NCBI GenBank assembly: GCA_964534375.1
Contig: CAZHPN010000196.1
Span: forward strand, 1-10,607
Reading direction: 5' to 3'
Origin: an uncultured bacterium
GTDB taxonomy: Bacteria > Lernaellota > Lernaellaia > Lernaellales > Lernaellaceae
Length of the DNA stretch: 10,607 nucleotides
Positions within the stretch are counted from its first letter, which is position 1. Each line of letters begins with the position of its first letter. The position numbers were made by a program, and so were the translations under genes. Shown here in pieces: positions 662-10,544 of this stretch. Below the pieces are notes generated by a model. That model was given only the letters and a program-made list of their open reading frames with translations, had not been told where the DNA came from and made no database searches.

Positions 662-991
662 ATGAACCGCAAAGCCTTCTACGCCGCCCTCGCGTTCGTT
701 TTCATGTTGTCGCTCGCCCTCGCCGCCGCCCTCGCCGGCTGCGCATCGGACAAATCGAACGGAAAGTCCGCCGACCCGACGACGACCGTGGACCCGGACG
801 GGTACGGGTGTTGCTATCAATATTTTCCGCCGGCAGAAGGCCAACCCGGCGGATTTGCCGGCGGCACGACCTACCTGCTCCGCAAGTATTGTGAATTTAC
901 GTTCCGCACCGACATTTCCTGCGATGTGTGCCTTTCGGGCAAATACGGCGCTCCCGAACCGGACCAGCCCACCTGCGCCAGCCTACCCTAA
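662..991 (+). CDS. Small Cys-rich lipoprotein (109 aa), function unknown
   Basis: GGAGG RBS upstream; MNRK + hydrophobic h-region + lipobox LAG|C (Cys27); six further Cys (CC, C, CxxC, C) in the mature part. Stop overlaps the convergent gene's stop (CTAA, 988-991). Confidence 0.85.
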   Translation: MNRKAFYAALAFVFMLSLALAAALAGCASDKSNGKSADPTTTVDPDGYGCCYQYFPPAEGQPGGFAGGTTYLLRKYCEFTFRTDISCDVCLSGKYGAPEPDQPTCASLP

Positions 992-2664
992 CCAGCCGTG
1001 TATAGCGGGCTGAATCGCAGCATGATGTAGCAGGCAATCCACGAGTTGCCGAGTGAACGCCAATGCGCGAGCATTTTTGTCCCCGTTGTGTCCAGATACA
1101 AATACAAATTCCCGTAATGGTTCTGAAACATGAAATAGGTTTCCCCCGCCGGCGGAATGCTCCCGTCCCCCGCGACCAAAAATGCCTGTTGCCGATTCCC
1201 GCCGAGCAGGCCGCTAATCGCAATTCCAGAGGGCGCGCCGGTGTCGGTGATCCCGCTGCGCAATAGATAATCCGTCGAACCGCCAGGCACCACGGCGACC
1301 GCATCGCCGCCTTTGCCGTCGCTATTGTCGCCGCCGTTTAGCCCCTTGCCGAACCAGTATTTTGCCGATGTGCCCGAAACGTGGTCCATGCCGGAGCCGC
1401 CGCCGCCGCCGCCGGCGAGTTGCGCGTAAATCGTCGCCTCGCAGTACCGCCCGGCCAGCGTGGTGAAATTATCGGGCATGAAGCCGCGGCCGACCTGCGA
1501 GAGATCGAACACGACAAAATCGTTTCCGACGGCGGGGCCGATGAGCTCTGCAGCCGGAGCTGTCGGCCCATCGGGGTAGAGCGTGACCACGTCGTTATTC
1601 ACCCAATCGTGCAGAATCCCGAACCAGTCGACCATGATCCCGGCGTTGTGGCCGACGGACCAGGGCGGCGACGCGTTGCCCGGCAGGGGGCCTTGCAGGC
1701 CCGGCAGGATCGACCGCACGTTGGCCATGAATTGGGCATTGGCCGGCAGTTGCGCGAACACGCCGGCGTTGATCGAATCGGCGACGAGGCCGCCCGACGG
1801 GGCTTCTTCGGCGATGACGGACGGCAGGGTAAACATTTCGGTCGCGTCGTCGGCGTAGGGCGGGGCGTTCCATTCGATCGCCGGCGCCAGCGGCGCGCCG
1901 AATTGGTTGGAGACTTTGACGAAGATGTGGGCGAGACACCAGTTGTATCCCAGGGCCGGCGTCCATTGGGCGAAAATCTGCGTCGGCCCGGGCGGATAGA
2001 CGCCAAGCACGCCGAGTTTGTTGTGGCTGTCGTCGTATGCCATCACATTGGCCGCGGCAAAGCCGAGGTCTCCGACGAATTGATGGAGCAAACCCGCGTT
2101 GACCTGCGGTCCGCCGGGGTAGTAGTCGGAAACGTCGGCCGGAACGGGGTGGGCGCCGCCCGCCTCCGTCCAGCAAATGCCGTCCGCGGTCGCCTCGAAA
2201 AAGCAATTCCGCAAGTCGCCGATGCTGTCGGGAATCGCGCCTTGGTACGTGTGGCCGTCGCCGCGGGCCAGAACGTCGAAAATCATCCGGTAGTAATCGT
2301 TGTTGTCGCCCGTCCAGTGCAGCAGCACCCAGGCGTCGAAGATAAAGCCTGCATCCGGCGACCGCAAAATGTCGTTGCCCGGCAAGCCGAAGGTCGCGCT
2401 CAGCAGCAGCGTGTTCGCCGGGATCGCCACCCCGTGCGCCGGGTCGATGGCGCCGGGCACGTTCGGCGACGTGTTCAATACGAACTGCTGCGTGTTGGCG
2501 ATCCCCGTGCCGCGCACCGGGTCGTTGCCCGCGAAGTCGGATGCGAGCACGCCCCCGCCGATCGGCGGCACGCCCTGTTCGTTCATCTGGTTGCCCTGGG
2601 AATCGGTGTAGAGGACCACCGCTTCCTGGGTCGGGGCCACGCCGTTGTCGTCGCTGCCGTTCAT
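988..2664 (-). CDS. Hypothetical 558 aa protein with two tandem copies of an uncharacterised beta-rich domain; putative tail fibre/receptor-binding protein
   Basis: Long ORF with natural Gly/Pro/aromatic-rich composition; GGAG RBS 5 nt before ATG; internal duplication visible by eye; lies distal to Dit/Tal-like genes. Function inferred from position only. Confidence 0.7.
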   Translation of the reverse strand: MNGSDDNGVAPTQEAVVLYTDSQGNQMNEQGVPPIGGGVLASDFAGNDPVRGTGIANTQQFVLNTSPNVPGAIDPAHGVAIPANTLLLSATFGLPGNDILRSPDAGFIFDAWVLLHWTGDNNDYYRMIFDVLARGDGHTYQGAIPDSIGDLRNCFFEATADGICWTEAGGAHPVPADVSDYYPGGPQVNAGLLHQFVGDLGFAAANVMAYDDSHNKLGVLGVYPPGPTQIFAQWTPALGYNWCLAHIFVKVSNQFGAPLAPAIEWNAPPYADDATEMFTLPSVIAEEAPSGGLVADSINAGVFAQLPANAQFMANVRSILPGLQGPLPGNASPPWSVGHNAGIMVDWFGILHDWVNNDVVTLYPDGPTAPAAELIGPAVGNDFVVFDLSQVGRGFMPDNFTTLAGRYCEATIYAQLAGGGGGGSGMDHVSGTSAKYWFGKGLNGGDNSDGKGGDAVAVVPGGSTDYLLRSGITDTGAPSGIAISGLLGGNRQQAFLVAGDGSIPPAGETYFMFQNHYGNLYLYLDTTGTKMLAHWRSLGNSWIACYIMLRFSPLYTAG

Positions 2665-2693
2665 GGTTGCTCCGCAAATGAATGAGGTTTTTT

Positions 2694-2745
2694 ATCCGCA
2701 GATTACGCAGATTACTTAGCGCAACCCTGCAGGCCGCAATCACAA
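2694..2745 (-). repeat. CAGATTACGCAGATT + hairpin repeat family copy
   Basis: ATCCGCAGATTACGCAGATTACTTAGCGC..GGCCGCAA, similar to 10497-10544, with a degenerate hairpin; ~30 nt upstream of the 2664 start. Confidence 0.75.
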
Positions 2746-2791
2746 ATCATGCACGGCACGCGGCGCCGGAAGGCAAAAAGGCGTCCGCGTA

Positions 2792-2875
2792 ATAAGTCCC
2801 ATAGGACCTATAAGACCTATAAGTCCTATAAGTCCTATAAGTCCTATAAGTCCTATAAGTCCTATAAGTCCTATA
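2792..2875. repeat. 9 bp tandem repeat (ATAAGTCCT) x9
   Basis: Three variant units (ATAAGTCCC, ATAGGACCT, ATAAGACCT), then six perfect ATAAGTCCT units (2819-2872). Intergenic, no spacers. Confidence 0.95.
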
Positions 2876-2894
2876 GCCACTGACCACGGCTCGC

Positions 2895-3893
2895 TCAGCT
2901 CGTACTCCCGTCGCCGCCGTCCGTCCGCGCGCTGTCCATTTGCGGCCCGATGTGGATGCTGAGATAGGCGACGATCCACGAAATGTTCACCCCCGAATGG
3001 GGGTGGTGCTTGTAATTCCACTGGCATTTGAGCACGCCGGCCGGATTCGCCATCGCCGCAAGCTGCGTCGGCTGGTCCAGCGGCGACAATTGCCCGCTGT
3101 CGGCGTAGACGGAAAGCCGGCCGTCGCAGTCGCCGCTCGTCGGGTGACCGAATATCAATTGGACGTTGTGCTGCGATTGCGTCGCCGAGCCGTAATCCGT
3201 AATGACGCCCGTGCGGCTGCTGTCGAGATAGGTGAACGCCTGCCAAACCTGTTTGCCGAAGTGGCCGAAGTTGTTGTAGGTGGTCGGGAGAAGATCCTTC
3301 GGCGTGAATGTCGGCGACATGGAGGCCGTCGCGTCCGCTTGCAGGTGCGTCATGGGAACGTCCCACGGGTCGCCCAGCGACACCGTGCCGGGCCACACGA
3401 TCGCCGCGGCGTTGACCATGCAGTAGCGCCGCTCGAAGCCGGTCGCGAGCCCGAGCGCCGCATGGCAGACGTCGGCCGGGAACGCCCCGGCAAATTGCGC
3501 GGGGTCGCAAATCGTAGCGATGCGCTGCGAGGCGGTGAGGTATTTCGCCGGGACGCCGTTGATGATTTCGTTGTTCGCCCAATCGCCGCCCGCGGTCCCC
3601 GCCTGATCGCCCAACCGGGATAGCGGCGGATCGTGCAACATCACGAAACCCTCGATCAGCATCCCCCCGTTGGCGTAGAACGTCCAACCCCACTGACCCG
3701 GATATTGCGCGATGATGTCGCCGCTGTTGGCGACGACGGGCGGGTAGGACTGCGCGCCGGGCAGGATCGCGCCCGCGTCGCGCCGGAAGCGGCTGGCGAG
3801 CGCCAGGCGGCCGATTTGCGCCGCGTAGGGCGTAGCGCCGCCGGTGGGCAGGGAAAACCCGAGAGCGTCGGGTTGGCCGGTGCGAGAGGGCAT
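2895..3893 (-). CDS. Hypothetical 332 aa protein, single-domain paralog of the 988-2664 protein; putative tail-associated/receptor-binding protein
   Basis: GGAGG RBS 4 nt before ATG; shares ordered motifs (ILPG, GxxxxxxxxLH, WxNN, RYC, QAF, LxxYxD, SWIxxY) with the downstream gene. Confidence 0.72.
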   Translation of the reverse strand: MPSRTGQPDALGFSLPTGGATPYAAQIGRLALASRFRRDAGAILPGAQSYPPVVANSGDIIAQYPGQWGWTFYANGGMLIEGFVMLHDPPLSRLGDQAGTAGGDWANNEIINGVPAKYLTASQRIATICDPAQFAGAFPADVCHAALGLATGFERRYCMVNAAAIVWPGTVSLGDPWDVPMTHLQADATASMSPTFTPKDLLPTTYNNFGHFGKQVWQAFTYLDSSRTGVITDYGSATQSQHNVQLIFGHPTSGDCDGRLSVYADSGQLSPLDQPTQLAAMANPAGVLKCQWNYKHHPHSGVNISWIVAYLSIHIGPQMDSARTDGGDGSTS

Positions 3894-3906
3894 GGAACCT
3901 CCGGTG

Positions 3907-4105
3907 AAGGAACAAGGAAAAAGTCAGACGCAGAGATAGTTCCCGTTCGGCCGCCTGAGACAGCCGCGCCCGATCCGAACGCGCCCGAAGCGGGCTCAGC
4001 CTTCCCGGCCGGCGAGACGCCCACGGGCGGGGAAGAAACAAGGAACAAAAAAAAAGTCAGGCCCCGCGACGAAGGAAAAAGGCAAAAGTAAAAAGGCAAA
4101 AGTCA
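3907..4105. repeat. Cluster of three heptamer arms ending AAAAGTCA(G); the last is the left arm of the hairpin element split by the cassette
   Basis: AAGGAACAAGGAAAAAGTCAG (3907-3927), AAGAAACAAGGAACAAAAAAAAAGTCAG (4033-4060) and GAAGGAAAAAGGCAAAAGTAAAAAGGCAAAAGTCA (4071-4105). A partial core match CGCGCCCGAAGCGGG lies at ~3980-3994. Confidence 0.75.
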
Positions 4106-4252
4106 GGAATTATTTCTTTGGCAAAGCAAGACAACTGCTACCGGATGTCCAACGCCTGCCGCATTTTGGTAGATGAAGAAGCCCGCTGCCGAAGGGTCCG
4201 CTGGATTGAACCTCAACATTTGGTCGTCATTCAATCGCAGCAACGCCGCGAA

Positions 4253-4600
4253 TCACCCTTGTGCAAAAAAAACCGGCGCGATCATTTTCCTTAACATGGC
4301 GGCGATACTTCTCTTGTCGGCGCGAGAGAGCATGCCGAGCCGCGTTCCCATTGCTGTTTCCTCAATCATCGCGAGTGTCGGCCTTACCCAGCTTGGAGAC
4401 GAGAGCCCCGCCGATTCCCAATCATTGACGGGGATGTCGCCTGGATTTTCCACGCTGGTAAGCGCCATACAGGCAAAGTCGCCATAAACTGTACGTGGAC
4501 CAAGGACAACGACTGGTCGTTTTTTCGACGAGCCTTGATCGGAAAAATCAACCTCAGCGAAGGCGACATCTCCGGGACTAAGGGCGGTCGTAGACGGCAT
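4253..4600 (-). CDS. mazF: Type II TA toxin, PemK/MazF family endoribonuclease (115 aa)
   Basis: PGDVAFAEVDFSDQGSSKKRPVVVL, ALTS and DWESAGLSSPSWVRP match the PemK/MazF pattern (GD..F.D....KxRPxxV, [IL]TS, GL...S). Start overlaps the upstream small gene by 23 nt. Confidence 0.88.
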   Translation of the reverse strand: MPSTTALSPGDVAFAEVDFSDQGSSKKRPVVVLGPRTVYGDFACMALTSVENPGDIPVNDWESAGLSSPSWVRPTLAMIEETAMGTRLGMLSRADKRSIAAMLRKMIAPVFFAQG

Positions 4601-4871
4601 CTTTTTCGTTGTCCCAGACCTTCGCTAGCGCTTTCTTCTGCACCGCCTTCCAAAAAGCATCGTCCTCTGCGGCGGCGCGCGCCCGCTCGGTGTTCGCGGC
4701 GGGGAAACGAAACAGTTGCCCTTTCTTCACCAAATATTGGCCCGCGGGCAGTATATTGTTTGGATCAAAAGTAAGAACATCGCCCCGCGGCGCCATTGGG
4801 CAACACTCTTCCAATTCTTCTGCCACGGACACTGACAGTTGTAGCTCAGTGAGTAGATTCGTGTCATTCAT
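4578..4871 (-). CDS. Putative antitoxin (97 aa)
   Basis: Start reassigned to ATG 4871 (ATGA overlap with the protease stop; GGGAG RBS). Small acidic protein directly upstream of and overlapping mazF. The C-terminus LAKVWDNEKDAVYD resembles the W-D-N-x-x-D-x-x-Y/W tail of small genes commonly found before PemK/MazF toxins. Confidence 0.7.
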   Translation of the reverse strand: MNDTNLLTELQLSVSVAEELEECCPMAPRGDVLTFDPNNILPAGQYLVKKGQLFRFPAANTERARAAAEDDAFWKAVQKKALAKVWDNEKDAVYDRP

Positions 4872-5974
4872 TTCGTTACTCCCTTCGGGTTTACGTTTCG
4901 CACCCATCCCAGGGAAGTTATCTCTACATCATATTCCCTTTTCAATCCGGGAACCAACGGCAAAATTTGGCCAGCGGGGATCTGCACCTGAACGTTTGGC
5001 GGAAAGACGGATCGTTGCCGAAGGCGGGCGCGGGTTTCATAAAGATATCCCCATTTTTTGGACTCTATTGCAGCCCCGATGAACCGAGCGTCGGCAGTCA
5101 ATTCATCTTTTAAGTGTTCGCCTAAAAAGAACGTCTTTCTCAAATTAAAATCAGACACATGCGCTCTAAGCAGTTCATCCAGGAGTTCAGTTAGTTCTTT
5201 CGACGCAAAATCCACTTGTTCCGGCCCCAAGATTTCTCTCGCTTCGTGCCTATTGATCATGTGAAGGTGCGAGAAAAAGCTCGAAGTCAGCGCCTCAATA
5301 ATCGCATTCACCTGCCGTTCGTCCGTGCGATGCAACCCGAGAATCTTCTTCGCAAGCCGCTTGATCAGTTGATGGACTCGGTGGACATTCCCGAGGGCGA
5401 TCGGGTGGACATTCTGGACAAGTCGGTCGAGGAACGGTTGCCACAATGCGCGAGTCGCGCATGCCTCATCGGCGTTGAACTTGAATTGATCGTGAACGAA
5501 CTCCCGATAGGCTTGAACATCTTCGACGCTGATCACGAGTCGCGCACCTGGAGTCACCGGATCGACGGGATTGAATTGGTTCCCGGTGCTGGGATCGATT
5601 GGGCTCAAATCAGAAATCGGGGTCATTACAATTTTTTTGCCGGCTAAGGCCAGAAGCGTTCCCGCACTGTAACAACGAAAAGGAACAAGAACTTCAAAGT
5701 CTTTGTCATACTCACGAAGCAGACTAATGATTGGCCAAACGGCGTTGGTCTCGCCTCCTCCGGTATAGAGGCAGAAATCGATTTTTGCGCGACGGGCCGC
5801 GGTTTCCTTAAGAACTCGAAAAAGGGCTTCCTTGGTGTCAGACGTCAAGGATGTCCGGAGTCCTCGAATTTGCGGTTCGCTTGGACGGTCGAAATTGAAG
5901 AAACAAACGAGGGTTCGGCCTCCCCGGATTTCCTCGATTTTTTTCATTATCGCTTGGCGCTCTTTAAGCGGCAT
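4868..5974 (-). CDS. SDH_sah-type (serine dehydrogenase proteinase, ClpP/crotonase-fold) serine protease, 368 aa
   Basis: Motifs LYTGGG, VLVPFRCYSAGTLLAL (nucleophile Ser), IVM...LSPIDP (Asp) and SHLHMINRHEA (His). AGGAGG RBS spacing favours ATG 5974 over GTG 5977. Confidence 0.85.
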   Translation of the reverse strand: MPLKERQAIMKKIEEIRGGRTLVCFFNFDRPSEPQIRGLRTSLTSDTKEALFRVLKETAARRAKIDFCLYTGGGETNAVWPIISLLREYDKDFEVLVPFRCYSAGTLLALAGKKIVMTPISDLSPIDPSTGNQFNPVDPVTPGARLVISVEDVQAYREFVHDQFKFNADEACATRALWQPFLDRLVQNVHPIALGNVHRVHQLIKRLAKKILGLHRTDERQVNAIIEALTSSFFSHLHMINRHEAREILGPEQVDFASKELTELLDELLRAHVSDFNLRKTFFLGEHLKDELTADARFIGAAIESKKWGYLYETRARLRQRSVFPPNVQVQIPAGQILPLVPGLKREYDVEITSLGWVRNVNPKGVTK

Positions 5975-6080
5975 CACGCCCTCCTACCTTAAAAGCGAAT
6001 CACACCTTTCTCGCGCTTCGGCCGCGCTAGCCGACGTCCTGCTTAGTTGTACGCGCAGTGGTCATCCCGTGACGCGTGGG

Positions 6081-6109
6081 ATTTCAGGCTCTTTTTTCCC
6101 CCGTGTCAA
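6081..6109 (-). promoter_or_regulatory. Candidate sigma70 promoter for the cassette operon
   Basis: Minus strand TTGACA (6109-6104), 17 nt spacer, TGAAAT (6086-6081), ~107 nt upstream of the protease start and inside the TIRs. The -10 element is only 4/6. Confidence 0.4.
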
Positions 6110-6316
6110 GCGGGTCTTTCTCCACTCCAACAAGTTAACAAGTTTTCCTTATTCGGCAAGCACTTACGCTATCTTAGCAGACCGTTTCTCACGCTTCCTA
6201 GTTGACCGGCTTGCGCGCAGGTTTCTTTACGGGCCGCTTCGCCGGCAGGGCGTCCACCGGCGGTTCGTCGCGCCCGGTTTTCACGGTTTTTCATGCTTTG
6301 CCAAAGGTATAAATCC

Positions 6317-6455
6317 GCAAAAGTCAGACGCAGCGCCTCGGTCCGACTCGTTGTCAGGGCAACCGTGCCCGAAGCGGGGCCGACGCCCTCCAACCGGAAC
6401 CCGGCTCCGCGCCGCGGGCCTGACTTTTTCCTTTTTCCTTTTTCCTTCTTCCTTC
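6317..6455. repeat. Remainder (core + right heptamer arm) of the split hairpin element
   Basis: The 102 nt core 6323-6424 aligns ungapped to the reverse complement of 8444-8545 at 83/102 positions (hand count). It is followed by a (TTTTTCC)n arm abutting the stop codon at 6456. Confidence 0.85.
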
Positions 6456-8399
6456 CTAAATCCATTCCGCGTTTGCCGCGTTCGACGCGCCGCCCCAAAT
6501 CGCGCCGGTCGCCGTGAGCGGATTGAGCGCCGGAACCTCGAGCGCTTCGGCCTCGGTTTCGCCGGTTTCCAAATCAAGGCTCGCGTTCGCCGTCGCCGCT
6601 TTCAGGCTGTACGGCACGGTCGGATCGTCGACCCAGACCCACAGGCCGCCGGGGGTCGGCCCCAGCCCGGCGGGAATGGTCGTCCGCACGCCGCCTTGCT
6701 GATCGGTGACGTTCACGCCGTAGCCCGGCGTTGGCGCCAGCCCCCACAGCGGCACGGCAATCTTGATCGTCGCGCCGTACTGCTGGCGCAGCACGTCCAT
6801 TTTCAGCGCGAAGTCCACGGCGTCCTCGGTGCGCCACAGCCACTGCGCTTCATACAACTCCTGCCGGTCGGTCAGCCCTTCCGCTTCCACATAGGTCAAT
6901 TCCGGCGGGAACCGTTGCCGATATTTGCCGGAGCGCGGACTGAAATTGTAGTCCACAAAAAGTTGTTTCAGCGCCCAACTCGCCGAATGGTCCGTGGCAT
7001 TGAACTTCTTGGGGTCGCTGTTATAGCGCGTCACGGGCAGCAGCCCCGCCGCCTGGTAGGCGTCCGAGTTGTAGAGCGGGTTGATCACGAGCTGCAACTG
7101 ATTCCCGACGACGACCAACATCATCCCGCACTCGCCGGCGAGCGTCGCGCAATGGCCGGACAGCAGTTTGTCCTTGCCGCCCTTATCGCCGCCGAGAAAA
7201 GCGCGGACCTGGTAGGGGCAGACGCCGGCCATCGAACCGCGCTTCCAATAGGCCGGAGCGCTGCTCCCTGACCCGGGCTGCCACGCCTGGCCCGCCGCGT
7301 TGTACGGCGTTCCGATCGTCTCGCCGATATATGGCGCCGGCAGGCCCGCGCGCACGAGAATGTCGAGCACGACCATCGCCGCGTCGCCGGTGGAAATGTT
7401 CCCGATGACGCTTTGCGCGTAAAAGACGTCGGACGGGTCGTATTTCTCCACCGTGCCCGGCGCCGTCGTCGCCCAGTTGCCATAATTGGCGACGATGAAA
7501 TCCGCGGCCGGATTGACGCAAGTGATAAACCCCGACTTCCGCGAGCCGCCGCCGTCGCATTTTTCGATCTGGCCGATCATCGCCGGCGCGCTGAGCAACG
7601 AGTCGCGGACGCAAGCGGCCGTGTCGCCCAGCGACAGCTTGCAGATCACCGGATACCCCGCGTTCGTCCACGGATCCATCGGCGCGGGCCAGACGGCTTG
7701 CAGCGGCGCGCCGTCCACGCCGCCGAAGCAGCCCAGCGGCGTCTGGAACTGCGCGCTGTCGTCCGTCCAGTCGCCGTAAACGATCTGCGCGGGCTTGTCG
7801 CGGGTATTTTTGCCGCCGAACTGCCCGCCATAGCCCGCCAGCAACGGCGCGACCTGCCACCAATATTTGTTCGGGAAATCGTAATCGTAATTCGCCGACC
7901 AGTGCGAAACCTTGAGGGCGATCGCGCCCCATTTCAACTCGAAACTCTCCTGCCCCATCGTGCCGCTGTACACGAGGTTGCGTAACGACAATACGGCCGG
8001 ATTCGGCGAGACGAGAAAAACGAACGCCTCGGAAAACAGGAACTCCCGGTCGCGAAGCACGGCCTGCCAAAACGCATCCGTCGGCGGCACGGCGATCTCG
8101 CAGGAAAACGTCGGCGGGACGAACTTCGGGAGCGGGTCGAGGTCCACTTTGCTGTCGAACTTCGGGGCCGACATCGCGCCGCCGTACTGGCCCACGGCGC
8201 GGGAATCCCCGCCGATCGACGCCAGCTCGGGAAAGGCCGCGGTTAGATCGTCGCCCAAGGCCCCGATCCGCGCCCCGCCGGGCGACGAAAAACGAAACGT
8301 ATCGTAGGCGAACGGCCCGGTTGCGTTGGCGTCTTTCCGCAGCAACAACACGACAAGGCATTGATATTGCGCGCTCAGAACGGCAGTTTCGTTGGCCAT
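6456..8399 (-). CDS. Putative phage tail tip hub/Tal-like protein (647 aa)
   Basis: Start reassigned to ATG 8399 (GGGGA RBS; the ORF-track N-terminus is repeat-derived). Ordered motifs PAQIVYGD, AAMVVLDIL, LAGECGMMLVVVGNQLQL, LFVDYNF and EAQWL resemble siphophage-type tail hub proteins; follows a Dit-like gene. Confidence 0.6.
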   Translation of the reverse strand: MANETAVLSAQYQCLVVLLLRKDANATGPFAYDTFRFSSPGGARIGALGDDLTAAFPELASIGGDSRAVGQYGGAMSAPKFDSKVDLDPLPKFVPPTFSCEIAVPPTDAFWQAVLRDREFLFSEAFVFLVSPNPAVLSLRNLVYSGTMGQESFELKWGAIALKVSHWSANYDYDFPNKYWWQVAPLLAGYGGQFGGKNTRDKPAQIVYGDWTDDSAQFQTPLGCFGGVDGAPLQAVWPAPMDPWTNAGYPVICKLSLGDTAACVRDSLLSAPAMIGQIEKCDGGGSRKSGFITCVNPAADFIVANYGNWATTAPGTVEKYDPSDVFYAQSVIGNISTGDAAMVVLDILVRAGLPAPYIGETIGTPYNAAGQAWQPGSGSSAPAYWKRGSMAGVCPYQVRAFLGGDKGGKDKLLSGHCATLAGECGMMLVVVGNQLQLVINPLYNSDAYQAAGLLPVTRYNSDPKKFNATDHSASWALKQLFVDYNFSPRSGKYRQRFPPELTYVEAEGLTDRQELYEAQWLWRTEDAVDFALKMDVLRQQYGATIKIAVPLWGLAPTPGYGVNVTDQQGGVRTTIPAGLGPTPGGLWVWVDDPTVPYSLKAATANASLDLETGETEAEALEVPALNPLTATGAIWGGASNAANAEWI

Positions 8400-8412
8400 T
8401 GATGTCCCCAAG

Positions 8413-8576
8413 GAAGGAACAAGAAACAAGGAAAAAGGAAAAAGTCAGCCCCGTGGCGCGGACCCGGGCGCCCGTTGGGGACCATCGGCCCCGTTTCGGG
8501 CGCGGTTCCCCTGACAACGAGTCGGCCCGTGCCGCTGGGCCCGACTTTTTCCTTTTTCCTTGTTCCTTGTTCCTTC
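8413..8576. repeat. Intact 164 bp hairpin element with heptamer-repeat inverted arms
   Basis: 34 bp arms 8413-8446 and 8543-8576 are reverse complements at 33/34. The GC-rich core is imperfectly self-complementary. The element fills nearly the whole intergenic gap. Confidence 0.9.
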
Positions 8577-8585
8577 TCGAAATTG

Positions 8586-9629
8586 TTACAGTCCCGGCGG
8601 GATCGGCGGCTGCGTGAACTCGATTTCGGTGTCGCCCTGGAACGGCACTTCGCCCGGCTTGAAGGTCAGGTCGCCCCGTTCGCCGTCGAACCAGGCGTAG
8701 TACGCGCGTTTGTTTTGGGGATAATCGTCGACCACCGCCGGATAGGGCGTAGTGAGACTGAGGTTCAACACCGGCACGCAGGTTGGCCGGCAGAAGATCA
8801 GCGCGCAGCGAGGGTGGTGGCACGAACGCCACAAATTCCGCAGCGCGAACCAATCGTCTTCGAGCATGTCCTGAAAACCGAGCTTGCCGGTTTCGCCGAC
8901 GCCGGGATTGACGGCAATGCGCCGGTTATCCAGCGTCGTCAGGGCCCCGGTGAGGTGCGCGCCGAACTCCGGACCGGTCGCGTATTGATATGTCGGTTGG
9001 ATCTCGTCGCCCGACAACGCCGTACCCGAGACAATGATCCGGCCGACCTCCAGGAAGTCGATCGGCTGAATCGGCGAGGCGCTTTGCACCACGATCCGCA
9101 GGTACTGCGCCAGCGTCGGCTGCGGGAACGCCAGGAAGATCGGCCGCGAACGGACGCCGACGTCCGGGCCGTAATTGTCGCTCGTCACCATCGACGTAAT
9201 ATCCCCGTAGAGATAATTCGCGCCGCCGAGCGAAGCGCCGACCGTCACCGACGGCAAGTACAACCGATGCCAATTGTAACCGATGATCGCCAGGTGCGAC
9301 AAAAACTTCTCGCTCTGGAAGTTGAGCTGGTAGACGATGGTGTACGTCACGGCCCCGCCCGGCGAAGGCAGTGTGGCGGGGACCGCGCCGGCGACGGTCC
9401 GCGACGTCACGGTCAAATCGTCGATTTGCACGGATGACGCCGGGAAATTCGGATCCTCGACGTTCGTATTCGTCGTGCCGTCCGTCGACCAGATGCTGCC
9501 CATTACCGTCGGCTGATCGCTGAGGAAATTCGCGCCGAAGATGACATTCGCATCCTTCGCGGGCGGCAAGGTGGGCGTCGGCGAACCCGGCGCCGGCCAA
9601 ATTCCCAGGCCGCGGGAAATAACGCTCAT
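8586..9629 (-). CDS. Putative distal-tail (Dit)-like phage protein with galactose-binding/F5-8C-type N-terminal domain (347 aa)
   Basis: EDPNFPASSV, LAIIGYN, AQYLRIVV and FLEVGRIIV follow the pattern of phage discoidin-like tail proteins. GGAG RBS lies in the end of the upstream gene (4 nt gap). Precedes the hub-like gene. Confidence 0.55.
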   Translation of the reverse strand: MSVISRGLGIWPAPGSPTPTLPPAKDANVIFGANFLSDQPTVMGSIWSTDGTTNTNVEDPNFPASSVQIDDLTVTSRTVAGAVPATLPSPGGAVTYTIVYQLNFQSEKFLSHLAIIGYNWHRLYLPSVTVGASLGGANYLYGDITSMVTSDNYGPDVGVRSRPIFLAFPQPTLAQYLRIVVQSASPIQPIDFLEVGRIIVSGTALSGDEIQPTYQYATGPEFGAHLTGALTTLDNRRIAVNPGVGETGKLGFQDMLEDDWFALRNLWRSCHHPRCALIFCRPTCVPVLNLSLTTPYPAVVDDYPQNKRAYYAWFDGERGDLTFKPGEVPFQGDTEIEFTQPPIPPGL

Positions 9630-9633
9630 GCCG

Positions 9634-10479
9634 CTACTCCAACGTAATCTGCGTGATTTGCGAGGCGTCGGTGGTCGGCTGCCCGGCGCTGTTCAGGAAC
9701 GTGCCCGTGATCGTTCCGCCGGCCGGCGTCGTCGCCTGCCAATGTCCGTACGTCGACGGCTGCGCCGGATCGAAACCCACTATCTTGATATCGGTCAGCA
9801 CGCCCGCGGCCGTCGCCGCGTAGGCCGCGGCGTTGCCGGCGGAGCTCTGCGCGGCCAAGACCACGTTTTGCGCGGGCGGGTTGAGAGAAACGATTCCGCC
9901 CGACGGCGCGACGCCGGCCAGCTCGTAGTTCCACACGTTTTCCGGAACGGCGGCCACCGCCGTCGCCGTCATCATGATATCATACGCCGCGGATGCGAGA
10001 TCGTCGGTGTTCGTCGGGTGGTAGCTCAGGTTGTCGGCGACGTTGGCGTCGGCGGCGACGATCATGAACTCGCCGAAGGCGAGCACGGCGCCGTCCGCCA
10101 CGCGGGTCAACGTCACGACGCCTTTGACATGATCCACCTCGAGCGCGGCGAACGGATCGTACGACCGCACGGCCGCGGGCGCATTCATGTAATAACTGCC
10201 GACGCCCAGGTCGATCCAATCGCCGGAACCGCTTGCCGGCGTTCCCGAGTAAAGCGCGCTCACCAGCGTGCTGCTGTGCTGCGCGGGGTCGACCGTCGTC
10301 CCGCCGGCCGACGGCGCGAAGGCCACCGTATTGCCCGGCGGCACGAGCTGCCACAGGGCGGTCAGATCGGCCGGAACCAAACCCGTCAGCGCCTGGCCGC
10401 TGGCCGGGTCGATCGGCGTCACGAGGATATACCCATACGTCGAGCCCGAGATGATCGCATTGTAGTCCCGAACGGCCAT
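9634..10479 (-). CDS. Hypothetical 281 aa protein, probably virion structural
   Basis: Start reassigned to ATG 10479 (AAGGA RBS; the upstream 20 codons translate a repeat). Ala/Thr/Gly-rich; GQALTGL..DLGVGSYY and AVPENVWNY resemble motifs of phage structural proteins. Function uncertain. Confidence 0.6.
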   Translation of the reverse strand: MAVRDYNAIISGSTYGYILVTPIDPASGQALTGLVPADLTALWQLVPPGNTVAFAPSAGGTTVDPAQHSSTLVSALYSGTPASGSGDWIDLGVGSYYMNAPAAVRSYDPFAALEVDHVKGVVTLTRVADGAVLAFGEFMIVAADANVADNLSYHPTNTDDLASAAYDIMMTATAVAAVPENVWNYELAGVAPSGGIVSLNPPAQNVVLAAQSSAGNAAAYAATAAGVLTDIKIVGFDPAQPSTYGHWQATTPAGGTITGTFLNSAGQPTTDASQITQITLE

Positions 10480-10496
10480 GATGAGATCCTTTTTTG

Positions 10497-10544
10497 TCCA
10501 CAGATTACGCAGATTGCTTAGCGCGGCCTTCGGCCGCAACCAAA
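10497..10544 (-). repeat. CAGATTACGCAGATT + GCGGCCTTCGGCCGC hairpin repeat family copy
   Basis: Reverse complement closely matches 448-485 apart from an extra 9 nt unit; lies 17 nt upstream of the 10479 start. Confidence 0.8.

What the first reader, a model, noticed from the sequence alone, without database searches (positions are those of the whole stretch)
4096..6326. Transposase-free cargo transposon whose empty target site can be reconstructed from the window
Seen: 22/26 TIRs with a pseudo-palindromic core CTTTGGCAAAG, a perfect 10 bp flanking duplication GCAAAAGTCA, lower GC inside, and no transposase ORF. Deleting 4106-6316 plus one duplicate joins the heptamer arm 4071-4105 to the core and arm at 6327-6455, giving an element equivalent to the intact inverted copy at 8413-8576. 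That is internal evidence for the insertion. Known: TIR + TSD is the DDE transposition signature, and passenger-only derivatives exist (MIC elements of IS231, transporter IS). Inference: the cassette is mobilised in trans by an IS whose family I cannot assign from these ends.
Basis: partly seen in the sequence, partly recalled or inferred. Interest (0 to 1): 0.8.

Follow-up and report, generated by a model that had tools for sequence, protein, structure and literature searches.

The report
IS1595 cargo cassette with protease-toxin module
A 2.2-kb piece of foreign DNA with the ends of an IS1595-type jumping gene but no jumping enzyme sits inside a host repeat; it was likely moved by an enzyme borrowed from a relative, and it carries a protease, a small protein and an RNA-cutting toxin that likely form a little-known toxin-control or anti-phage module.

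Summary
The 24-bp ends match 26 other element ends in JGI metagenomes, several next to intact IS1595 transposases. All 26 begin with C, so the element is 4105-6317 with the IS1595-typical 8-bp duplication (CAAAAGTC), not a 10-bp one; the empty site is the same, and restores a 164-bp host repeat (137/164 ungapped to 8413-8576). No cognate transposase was found in this MAG and no empty allele in contigs of 8 runs. Sister elements include autonomous and transposase-less forms; 12 of 19 examined have restriction-modification or nuclease genes inside or beside an end. The cargo is a variant of a conserved SDH/ClpP-fold protease + small protein + RNase operon: 6 of 6 close relatives have PIN; here MazF replaces it and the small protein has gained a MazF-antitoxin tail. 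RNA contigs from three studies cover only the cargo. The transposon is a known kind (MIC); the cargo triad I did not find described. The scan noted SDH proteases in other defence-like cassettes before, not this element.

The parts
4105..6317 (.). Transposase-less IS1595-family cassette (2213 bp, 52.6% GC)
4097..4104 (+). Left 8-bp target duplication CAAAAGTC
   Evidence: 8-bp duplications at L013 and L036
6318..6325 (+). Right 8-bp target duplication CAAAAGTC
4105..4128 (+). Left TIR, 21/24 to the family consensus; terminal base A where all 26 other ends have C
6294..6317 (-). Right TIR, 23/24 to the family consensus; read on + it holds the last codons and stop that end the transposase in autonomous members (ALPKV*)
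4868..5974 (-). SDH-type ClpP-fold serine protease, 368 aa; invariant S103, D127, H236/H238 (S100, D124, H233/H235 in the 365-aa query used)
   Evidence: Pfam PF01972 E 9e-11; alignment; model pLDDT 83, best Foldseek matches ClpP/SppA
4578..4871 (-). 97-aa protein: N-terminal domain of the unnamed small family that follows SDH in relatives, fused to a C-terminal tail like that of MazF/PemK antitoxins; start overlaps the SDH stop (ATGA)
4253..4600 (-). PemK/MazF-family RNase toxin, 115 aa; start overlaps the last 23 nt of the small gene
   Evidence: Pfam PF02452 E 1.4e-7; PHROG 1936
6081..6109 (-). Possible promoter of the cargo operon (perfect -35 hexamer, 17-nt spacer, weak -10); weak, seen by eye, not scored by the scanner
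   Evidence: sequence; one search lists no site on this strand
4071..4104 (+). Left heptamer arm of the host palindromic repeat that was hit
6326..6455 (+). Core and right arm of the interrupted host repeat
8413..8576 (-). Intact paralogue of the host repeat (164 nt; hairpin z = -9.7), internal control for the empty site

Best explanation
This is a passenger-only (MIC-type) member of an IS1595-family lineage: 24-bp inverted ends and an 8-bp duplication bracket a foreign three-gene operon inside a host repeat, and it was likely inserted by a cognate DDE transposase supplied in trans. Steps: (shown) the ends equal those of autonomous IS1595 elements whose transposase stop codon lies in the right end; (shown) that lineage inserts next to A/T-rich 8-mers, which explains the landing in the A-rich arm of a host heptamer palindrome in a 64% GC genome; (inferred) the helper was a transient or unassembled autonomous copy, since only a 41%-identical IS1595 transposase with different ends is in this assembly; (inferred) the non-canonical left terminal base may now immobilise it. 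The cargo is one translationally coupled operon, likely transcribed: an SDH/ClpP-fold protease, a small protein and MazF. (Shown) relatives keep protease + small protein but carry a PIN RNase; here MazF and the C-terminal tail of its usual antitoxin were taken in as one block and fused in frame to the small protein. (Inferred, about 0.8) the tail holds MazF inactive; (inferred, about 0.4) the protease acts on the small protein's N-terminal domain to release the RNase on a trigger such as phage infection, which would fit the restriction-modification cargo of sister elements.
For: Ends: 35 stretches in JGI metagenomes, 28 distinct ends, 2 identical to this element and 26 others; all 26 have C before the pattern's first base, a base not in the pattern, and conservation stops after position 24. 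Transposase next to such ends scores NF033547 IS1595 E 1e-61, PF12762 and PF12760; five full-length copies are 78-94% identical. L013 (3047 bp, autonomous) and L036 (569 bp, no transposase) have exact 8-bp duplications. Three pairs of ends share the inner sequence but have different flanks, i.e. independent insertions. Outer 8-mers average 87% A/T (n=25) against 49% for the next 100 nt (n=23); 92% have >=5 A/T against 14% of G000 8-mers. IS1595 family: 8-bp TSD, Zn finger + DDE (PMC8101967 passages); 25-bp TIR and 8-bp DR for IS1595 tIS (PMC5704250 passages). Empty site 137/164 without gaps. Cargo: 6 of 6 loci whose SDH is 39-56% identical have small gene + PIN directly downstream; the window's small protein scores 33 bits on a family HMM built without it, best of 1000 shuffles 5.3; its tail matches the antitoxin tails upstream of 17 MazF relatives, 15 of which have the same 20-nt overlap, 11/13 identical to the annotated antitoxin in L078. 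RNA-run contigs of three studies lie only within 4261-5952, without mismatches, none in 3800-4187 or 6516-6700.
Against: No cognate transposase or second copy of the ends in G000 (94% complete) or in 16 other genomes of its phylum. No empty allele in contigs of 8 runs, and no relative with these flanks among 40 genomes. Exact 8-bp duplications in only 2 of the 5 other elements with both ends in view (L016/L017, L031, L043 lack them). The left terminal base is A, so a 9-bp duplication with loss of the terminal C also fits. The tail HMM score is modest (11.1 bits; 1 of 1000 shuffles scored higher). The window's small domain has lost conserved family residues (F, ST, PP), which could mean it is decaying. 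No PADLOC model matches any cargo protein. RNA contigs give no strand or level and may include DNA.
Confidence: 0.75

Rival explanations
1. An autonomous IS1595 transporter element inserted here and later lost its transposase gene in place; it never moved as a cassette.
For: In autonomous sisters the transposase lies between the cargo's start and one end, transcribed away from the cargo (L013, L016, L022, L027, L040); here that position is a 320-bp gap (5975-6293). No helper is found in the assembly.
Against: No transposase remnant beyond the codons inside the TIR, and no DNA similarity of either subterminal region to autonomous copies outside the TIR; a transposase-less sister with its own exact 8-bp duplication exists (L036).
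Confidence: 0.17
2. A non-IS1595 mechanism: a 10-bp-duplicating transposon of another family, or site-specific integration aimed at the heptamer repeats.
For: The literal direct repeat is 10-11 bp and the site lies at the inner edge of a repeat arm.
Against: The ends are those of IS1595 elements; their other insertion flanks are varied A/T-rich sequences, not this repeat; no other arm of the repeat in G000 carries these ends.
Confidence: 0.04
3. Chance match or mis-assembly among low-complexity repeats.
For: The flanks are genome-wide A-rich repeats that break contigs.
Against: A single Logan contig spans both junctions; right junction also in two other runs; identical element in two JGI contigs (L018; L037/L038); family-wide ends.
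Confidence: 0.02
4. About the cargo only: it is a plain type II addiction pair (97-aa antitoxin + MazF) behind a protease that has no role in toxin control; the small N-terminal domain is a leftover from the PIN-type ancestor.
For: Tail and overlap are those of ordinary MazF pairs; the N-domain is diverged; SDH relatives at 29-34% identity have no small gene of this family and no toxin seen next to them (8 of 8 loci).
Against: Protease, small gene and RNase stay together and in order in 6 of 6 closer relatives and remain translationally coupled here after a toxin swap; the fusion left no recognisable DNA-binding domain of the kinds seen in the 17 MazF pairs.
Confidence: 0.4

Closest known systems
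IS1595-family transporter IS (tISSag10/MTnSag1, tISCpe8, ISNha5; Siguier 2009, not read; PMC5704250, PMC11891212, PMC8101967 passages)
   Same: About 25-bp TIRs, 8-bp duplication, Zn-ribbon + DDE transposase in autonomous sisters, passenger genes. Ends fit the ISNha5-group signature CGGnnTT (signature recalled, from no call).
   Different: This copy has no transposase; the lineage's passengers are mostly restriction-modification or nuclease genes rather than resistance genes or regulators; best annotated plasmid transposases are only 40-46% identical.
Mobile insertion cassettes (MIC231 of the IS231/IS4 family; definition in PMC3129680 passages)
   Same: IS ends plus passenger genes, no transposase, dependent on a cognate transposase in trans.
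   Different: Ends, duplication length and helper belong to IS1595, not IS4/IS231; helper not found in the same assembly.
Type II MazF/PemK toxin-antitoxin pairs with exchangeable neutralising tails ('linear neutralization', PMC10440598 passages)
   Same: Same C-terminal tail motif and same 20-nt gene overlap as antitoxins with AbrB-like, Phd-like or DUF2281-like N-termini (labels for the first two by eye; DUF2281 weak Pfam hit).
   Different: The N-terminal carrier is the unnamed SDH-partner domain, and a protease gene is coupled upstream.
DefenseFinder FS_HP_SDH_sah (Fillol-Salom 2022; name seen in PMC13532340 and note e1-211168, paper not held) and RosmerTA (protease antitoxin, PMC10440598 passage)
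   Same: An SDH-type protease with a small partner in a mobile defence context; a protease linked to a toxin.
   Different: Here a third gene, an RNase toxin (PIN or MazF), is a constant part; homology of the small partner to the FS 'HP' could not be tested; RosmerTA uses an ImmA-type Zn protease as the antitoxin.

Membership tests
IS1595 family | Terminal inverted repeats of about 25 bp shared with an autonomous member | tested here: met
   21/24 and 23/24 to the ends of L013-type elements
IS1595 family | 8-bp target duplication | tested here: met
   CAAAAGTC; L013, L036 also 8 bp; absent at 3 of 5 other complete elements
IS1595 family | Encodes a Zn-ribbon + DDE_Tnp_IS1595 transposase (autonomous member) | tested here: not met
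   None in the cassette; met in sisters with the same ends. So it is a non-autonomous derivative, not an IS proper
ISNha5 subgroup | Ends CGGnnTT, passengers (signature recalled) | tested here: inconclusive
   Right end and all 26 sister ends fit; left end starts with A; the table with the signature was not held
ISNha5 subgroup | Transposase groups with ISfinder reference members | not testable with these tools
   No ISfinder set available
Mobile insertion cassette (MIC) | IS ends + duplication + passenger genes, no transposase | tested here: met
Mobile insertion cassette (MIC) | Cognate intact IS in the same genome | tested here: inconclusive
   Not found in a 94%-complete, 381-contig assembly; only a 41%-identical IS1595 with different ends
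Mobile insertion cassette (MIC) | Moves when the transposase is supplied in trans | not testable with these tools
   Needs an assay; no empty allele seen
MIC231 / IS4 family | IS231-type ends and IS4 transposase as helper | tested here: not met
   Ends sit beside IS1595 transposases
Type II toxin-antitoxin (MazF/PemK) | Toxin gene overlapped by an upstream gene with a neutralising tail | tested here: met
   (sequence only)
Type II toxin-antitoxin (MazF/PemK) | Antitoxin has a DNA-binding autoregulatory domain | tested here: inconclusive
   No Pfam family above cut-off for the 97-aa protein; N-domain is of an unnamed family
Type II toxin-antitoxin (MazF/PemK) | Toxicity and neutralisation | not testable with these tools
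   Bench assay needed
FS_HP_SDH_sah defence system | SDH_sah protease gene | tested here: met
   PF01972; below the NCBIfam equivalog cut-off (58.5 vs 250 bits)
FS_HP_SDH_sah defence system | Partner homologous to the system's HP; anti-phage activity | not testable with these tools
   No DefenseFinder models; primary paper not held; no PADLOC hit

The most novel reading that the evidence does not exclude
SDH protease + small adaptor + RNase is an undescribed protease-gated toxin system for phage defence whose effector is plug-and-play: the small domain is the protease's substrate or sensor, and this copy is a natural swap in which MazF with its neutralising tail was grafted on in place of PIN; it travels on an IS1595 lineage that specialises in shuttling defence genes with and without its own transposase.
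Probability: 0.3. Interest if true: 0.72.

Novelty: new variant of a known kind. Interest (0 to 1): 0.5.

Why it matters
The element itself is a clean example of a known kind, now tied to a named family and to testable helper transposases. Two things go further: an IS1595 lineage whose autonomous and non-autonomous members mostly carry restriction-modification and nuclease genes gives a concrete, small vehicle for the scatter of defence genes across phyla, and its ends are a search handle for new defence cargo; and the cargo exposes a conserved protease-small protein-RNase operon with a natural toxin swap, which makes the open question of what SDH-type proteases do in defence islands directly testable with three short genes.

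Tried and rejected
Second copies or a helper in G000: none with <=6 mismatches to either end except one unrelated 6-mismatch site; PF12762 finds only C41 (intact, 41% to the cognate transposase, ends about 15/24 to the consensus by eye) and a decayed piece on C73; C41 is judged an unlikely helper. Ends in viral contigs: 0; in 16 other phylum genomes: 0. Cognate transposase in viral contigs: none. Empty allele: not seen in contigs of X1-X3, X7 or X4-X6, X8; the one joint listed (4095 to 6418, 18 other letters, side 23) is not the predicted junction and probably comes from another repeat copy; X7 and X8 are too thin to say anything. Syntenic flanks in 40 relatives: none. Far ends of single-ended metagenome loci could not be fetched. 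Small-protein searches: word search found only itself; Atlas gave only hits under 0.9; entry from the small-protein side in viral contigs gave 2 short matches (L082 9 bits, L083 21 bits) with no SDH or toxin beside them, dropped from the triad count. SDH profile searches of three small phyla (14, 13, 2 genomes) found nothing; no PDB sequence relative. The complex predictor was not available, so binding of the small protein to the protease or to MazF has no structural test. Flanking genes have no Pfam, NCBIfam or PHROG match above cut-off, no paralogue in G000 and no phage hit, so a prophage context is not shown. No Rfam match. Literature searches that did not surface the triad or an IS1595 defence-cargo lineage: (open-access library only; ISfinder and Siguier 2009/2015 not seen, and they may list IS1595 MICs).
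Full report
1. The observation. The window is the whole contig C196 of a 6.3-Mb, 381-contig, 64% GC assembly. Cargo GC3 is 0.54-0.61 against 0.82-0.86 in four flanking genes. Deleting the insert restores a 164-nt element that matches the reverse complement of 8413-8576 at 137 of 164 positions without a gap; that intact copy is a strong hairpin (z -9.7) of a kind whose heptamer arms recur genome-wide (65 arrays) while this core occurs only twice. The filled allele is real: one contig of run X1 (possibly the source) covers 4024-6447 unbroken, and contigs of X2 and X3 cross the right junction.

2. The family. A degenerate pattern from the two ends found 35 stretches in JGI metagenomes, none in viral contigs. 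They reduce to 28 distinct ends: 2 identical to this element (L018, L037, L038) and 26 others. The base just outside my pattern is C in 26 of 26, and conservation ends after 24 bases, so the TIR is CGGAATTATACCTTTGGCAAAGCA (the inner part is fixed by the pattern, the outer C and the end point are not). Transposase sequence lies next to such ends in L013/14, L016/17/24, L019, L022, L023, L027, L032 (partial), L035, L040 and L045; it is an IS1595 transposase (NF033547 E 1e-61; PF12762, PF12760), 78-94% identical among five full copies, with its stop codon inside the TIR. Close homologues are named from Planctomycetota MAGs in 3 of the best 120 hits, the rest carry no taxon. Passages of PMC8101967 and PMC5704250 give 8-bp duplications and about 25-bp TIRs for this family. 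Read with these ends the window element is 4105-6317 with duplication CAAAAGTC; the left terminal base is A instead of C, and the element's own terminal G happens to match base 4096, which produces the apparent 10-11 bp. A 9-bp duplication with loss of the left C also fits; the empty allele is the same in every reading. Of five other elements with both ends in view, two are autonomous (L013 3047 bp; L016/L017 4112 bp) and three lack a transposase (L031 379 bp, L036 569 bp, L043 3318 bp); exact 8-bp duplications are present in 2 of 5 (L013, L036). Three pairs of ends share their inner sequence at different flanks, so the lineage has been hopping. Flanking 8-mers are 87% A/T (n=25) versus 49% further out (n=23), which accounts for the hit in an A-rich repeat arm without any repeat-targeting.

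3. The helper. No second copy of the ends is in G000 or in 16 other genomes of its phylum. G000 holds one intact IS1595 transporter at C41:17715-21110 with perfect 25-bp ends of another sequence, an 8-bp duplication, a transposase 41% identical to the cognate one, and methylase + GmrSD/HNH cargo. It is an unlikely helper. Mobilisation in trans is therefore inferred. The main rival is an autonomous element that lost its transposase in place: the 320-bp gap at 5975-6293 is where sisters keep the gene, but no remnant or subterminal similarity is left. No empty allele was seen in contigs of 8 runs, and none of 40 other genomes has the flanks.

4. What the lineage carries. I scanned 35 of the 64 ORFs listed inside the ends, from 19 elements, against Pfam: 10 of 19 have methyltransferase or restriction-modification genes and 2 more an HNH or SNase nuclease; 7 have no match. 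PADLOC calls type IIG/type I RM for six of the eight sister proteins tested and none for the window's three. Caveats: several of these elements are related, and for most only one end is in view, so cargo is assigned by proximity.

5. The cargo here. Three coupled genes on the minus strand: an SDH-type ClpP-fold protease (PF01972; invariant Ser, Asp, His in 35 aligned homologues; model pLDDT 83 with ClpP and SppA as best folds at TM about 0.33 of the query), a 97-aa protein, and a PemK/MazF toxin. The protease family is wide (742 hits among 8000 scored). In all 6 loci with an SDH 39-56% identical (L011, L051, L052, L053, L056, L057) it is followed by a 60-90 aa acidic gene and a PIN RNase; 8 loci at 29-34% identity lack this small gene. 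Four of the six small proteins seeded the profile; L056 and L057 did not and score 73 and 66 bits. The profile finds 193 clusters at E<=0.001; an HMM from 147 of them, without the window protein, scores its first 72 residues at 33 bits, best shuffle 5.3. Its last 30 residues are not part of that family: they match the tails of the genes upstream of 17 MazF relatives, 15 with the same 20-nt overlap onto the toxin start, and are 11/13 identical to an annotated antitoxin (L078) at the core motif (HMM 11.1 bits, 1 of 1000 shuffles higher; best of 147 family members 4.7). So MazF and its neutralising tail replaced PIN as a block, in line with the exchangeable 'linear neutralization' elements of PMC10440598 (passages). 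None of the six PIN-type loci has these TIRs: the operon is cargo, not part of the transposition module. Contigs from three RNA runs of three studies lie at 4261-5952 without mismatches and not in the flanks laid; their lengths account for the word shares over 3000-7500 (0.18, 0.14, 0.12; my arithmetic 0.19, 0.13, 0.12), so the flanking genes are not represented. This suggests transcription but gives no strand or level.

6. How it likely works. A cognate IS1595 transposase bound the two 24-bp ends and inserted the cassette at an A-rich 8-mer (shown: ends, duplication, empty site; inferred: trans supply). The operon likely makes MazF held by the tail of the small protein (about 0.8). The persistence of protease + small domain across a toxin swap suggests that the protease gates the toxin through that domain, most plausibly in phage defence (about 0.4); a plain addiction pair behind an unrelated protease is about as likely. 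No structural test of binding was available.

7. Comparison and novelty. It works like a MIC and passes as a non-autonomous IS1595 derivative; it is not an IS proper and not an IS231 MIC. The ISNha5 label rests on a recalled end signature. MICs and IS1595 transporters are known (passages of PMC3129680, PMC11891212, PMC5704250; Siguier 2009 and De Palmenaer 2004 seen only as references). The nearest defence system is FS_HP_SDH_sah, seen only by name (PMC13532340 passage; PMC12829572 reference list; PMC13276650 has no mention). Eight searches of the open library did not surface the triad or this lineage; subscription papers and ISfinder were not seen. Verdict: new variant of a known kind, interest 0.5, carried mainly by the cargo and the defence-shuttle lineage.

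Noticed in passing
G000:C41:17715-21110 (L084): Intact IS1595 transporter with perfect 25-bp TIRs, 8-bp duplication, an internal partial copy of the TIR at 17838-17852, and EcoRI-type adenine methylase + GmrSD/HNH nuclease cargo: a second IS1595 defence shuttle in the same genome.
   Followed up: partly
L013, L016, L023, L027, L040: The transposase's last codons and stop are encoded inside the terminal inverted repeat (ALPKV*), and cargo is transcribed away from the transposase.
   Followed up: partly
L031:2870-3248: 379-bp transposase-less element without an adjacent 8-bp duplication, but with a 9-bp direct repeat set 2 bases out on each side.
   Followed up: no
L043:260-3577: Transposase-less 3.3-kb element holding a single type ISP-like restriction-modification gene; one end shares all three inner TIR variants seen in the window's ends, hinting at a sub-lineage.
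   Followed up: partly
L020, L026, L036: Three elements carry related small ORFs with a shared 'HSN(Q/H)DSL' motif next to an end and no Pfam match; possibly a phage-borne cargo family.
   Followed up: no
window 3907-4104: Three heptamer arms in direct orientation (3907, 4032, 4071) precede the insertion; the first core resembles one on contig C252 (76%), so the host repeat here is a nested or tandem array.
   Followed up: no
window 988-3893 and 6456-10479: Five co-oriented minus-strand genes (281-647 aa) with no family, paralogue or phage match, each separated by a different intergenic repeat; they look like a virion or tail module by size and Gly/Pro-rich make-up, but this is not shown.
   Followed up: partly
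window 2783-2875; 27-372; 448-535 with 2688-2739 and 10490-10544: Other repeat families: a 9-bp tandem array (ATAAGTCCT-type), nested REP-like palindromes at the contig start, and a 'CGCAGATTAC' repeat family.
   Followed up: no
G000:C73:7153-7512: Decayed IS1595 transposase fragment (35% over 121 aa) after a primase/DNA-binding-like gene end.
   Followed up: no
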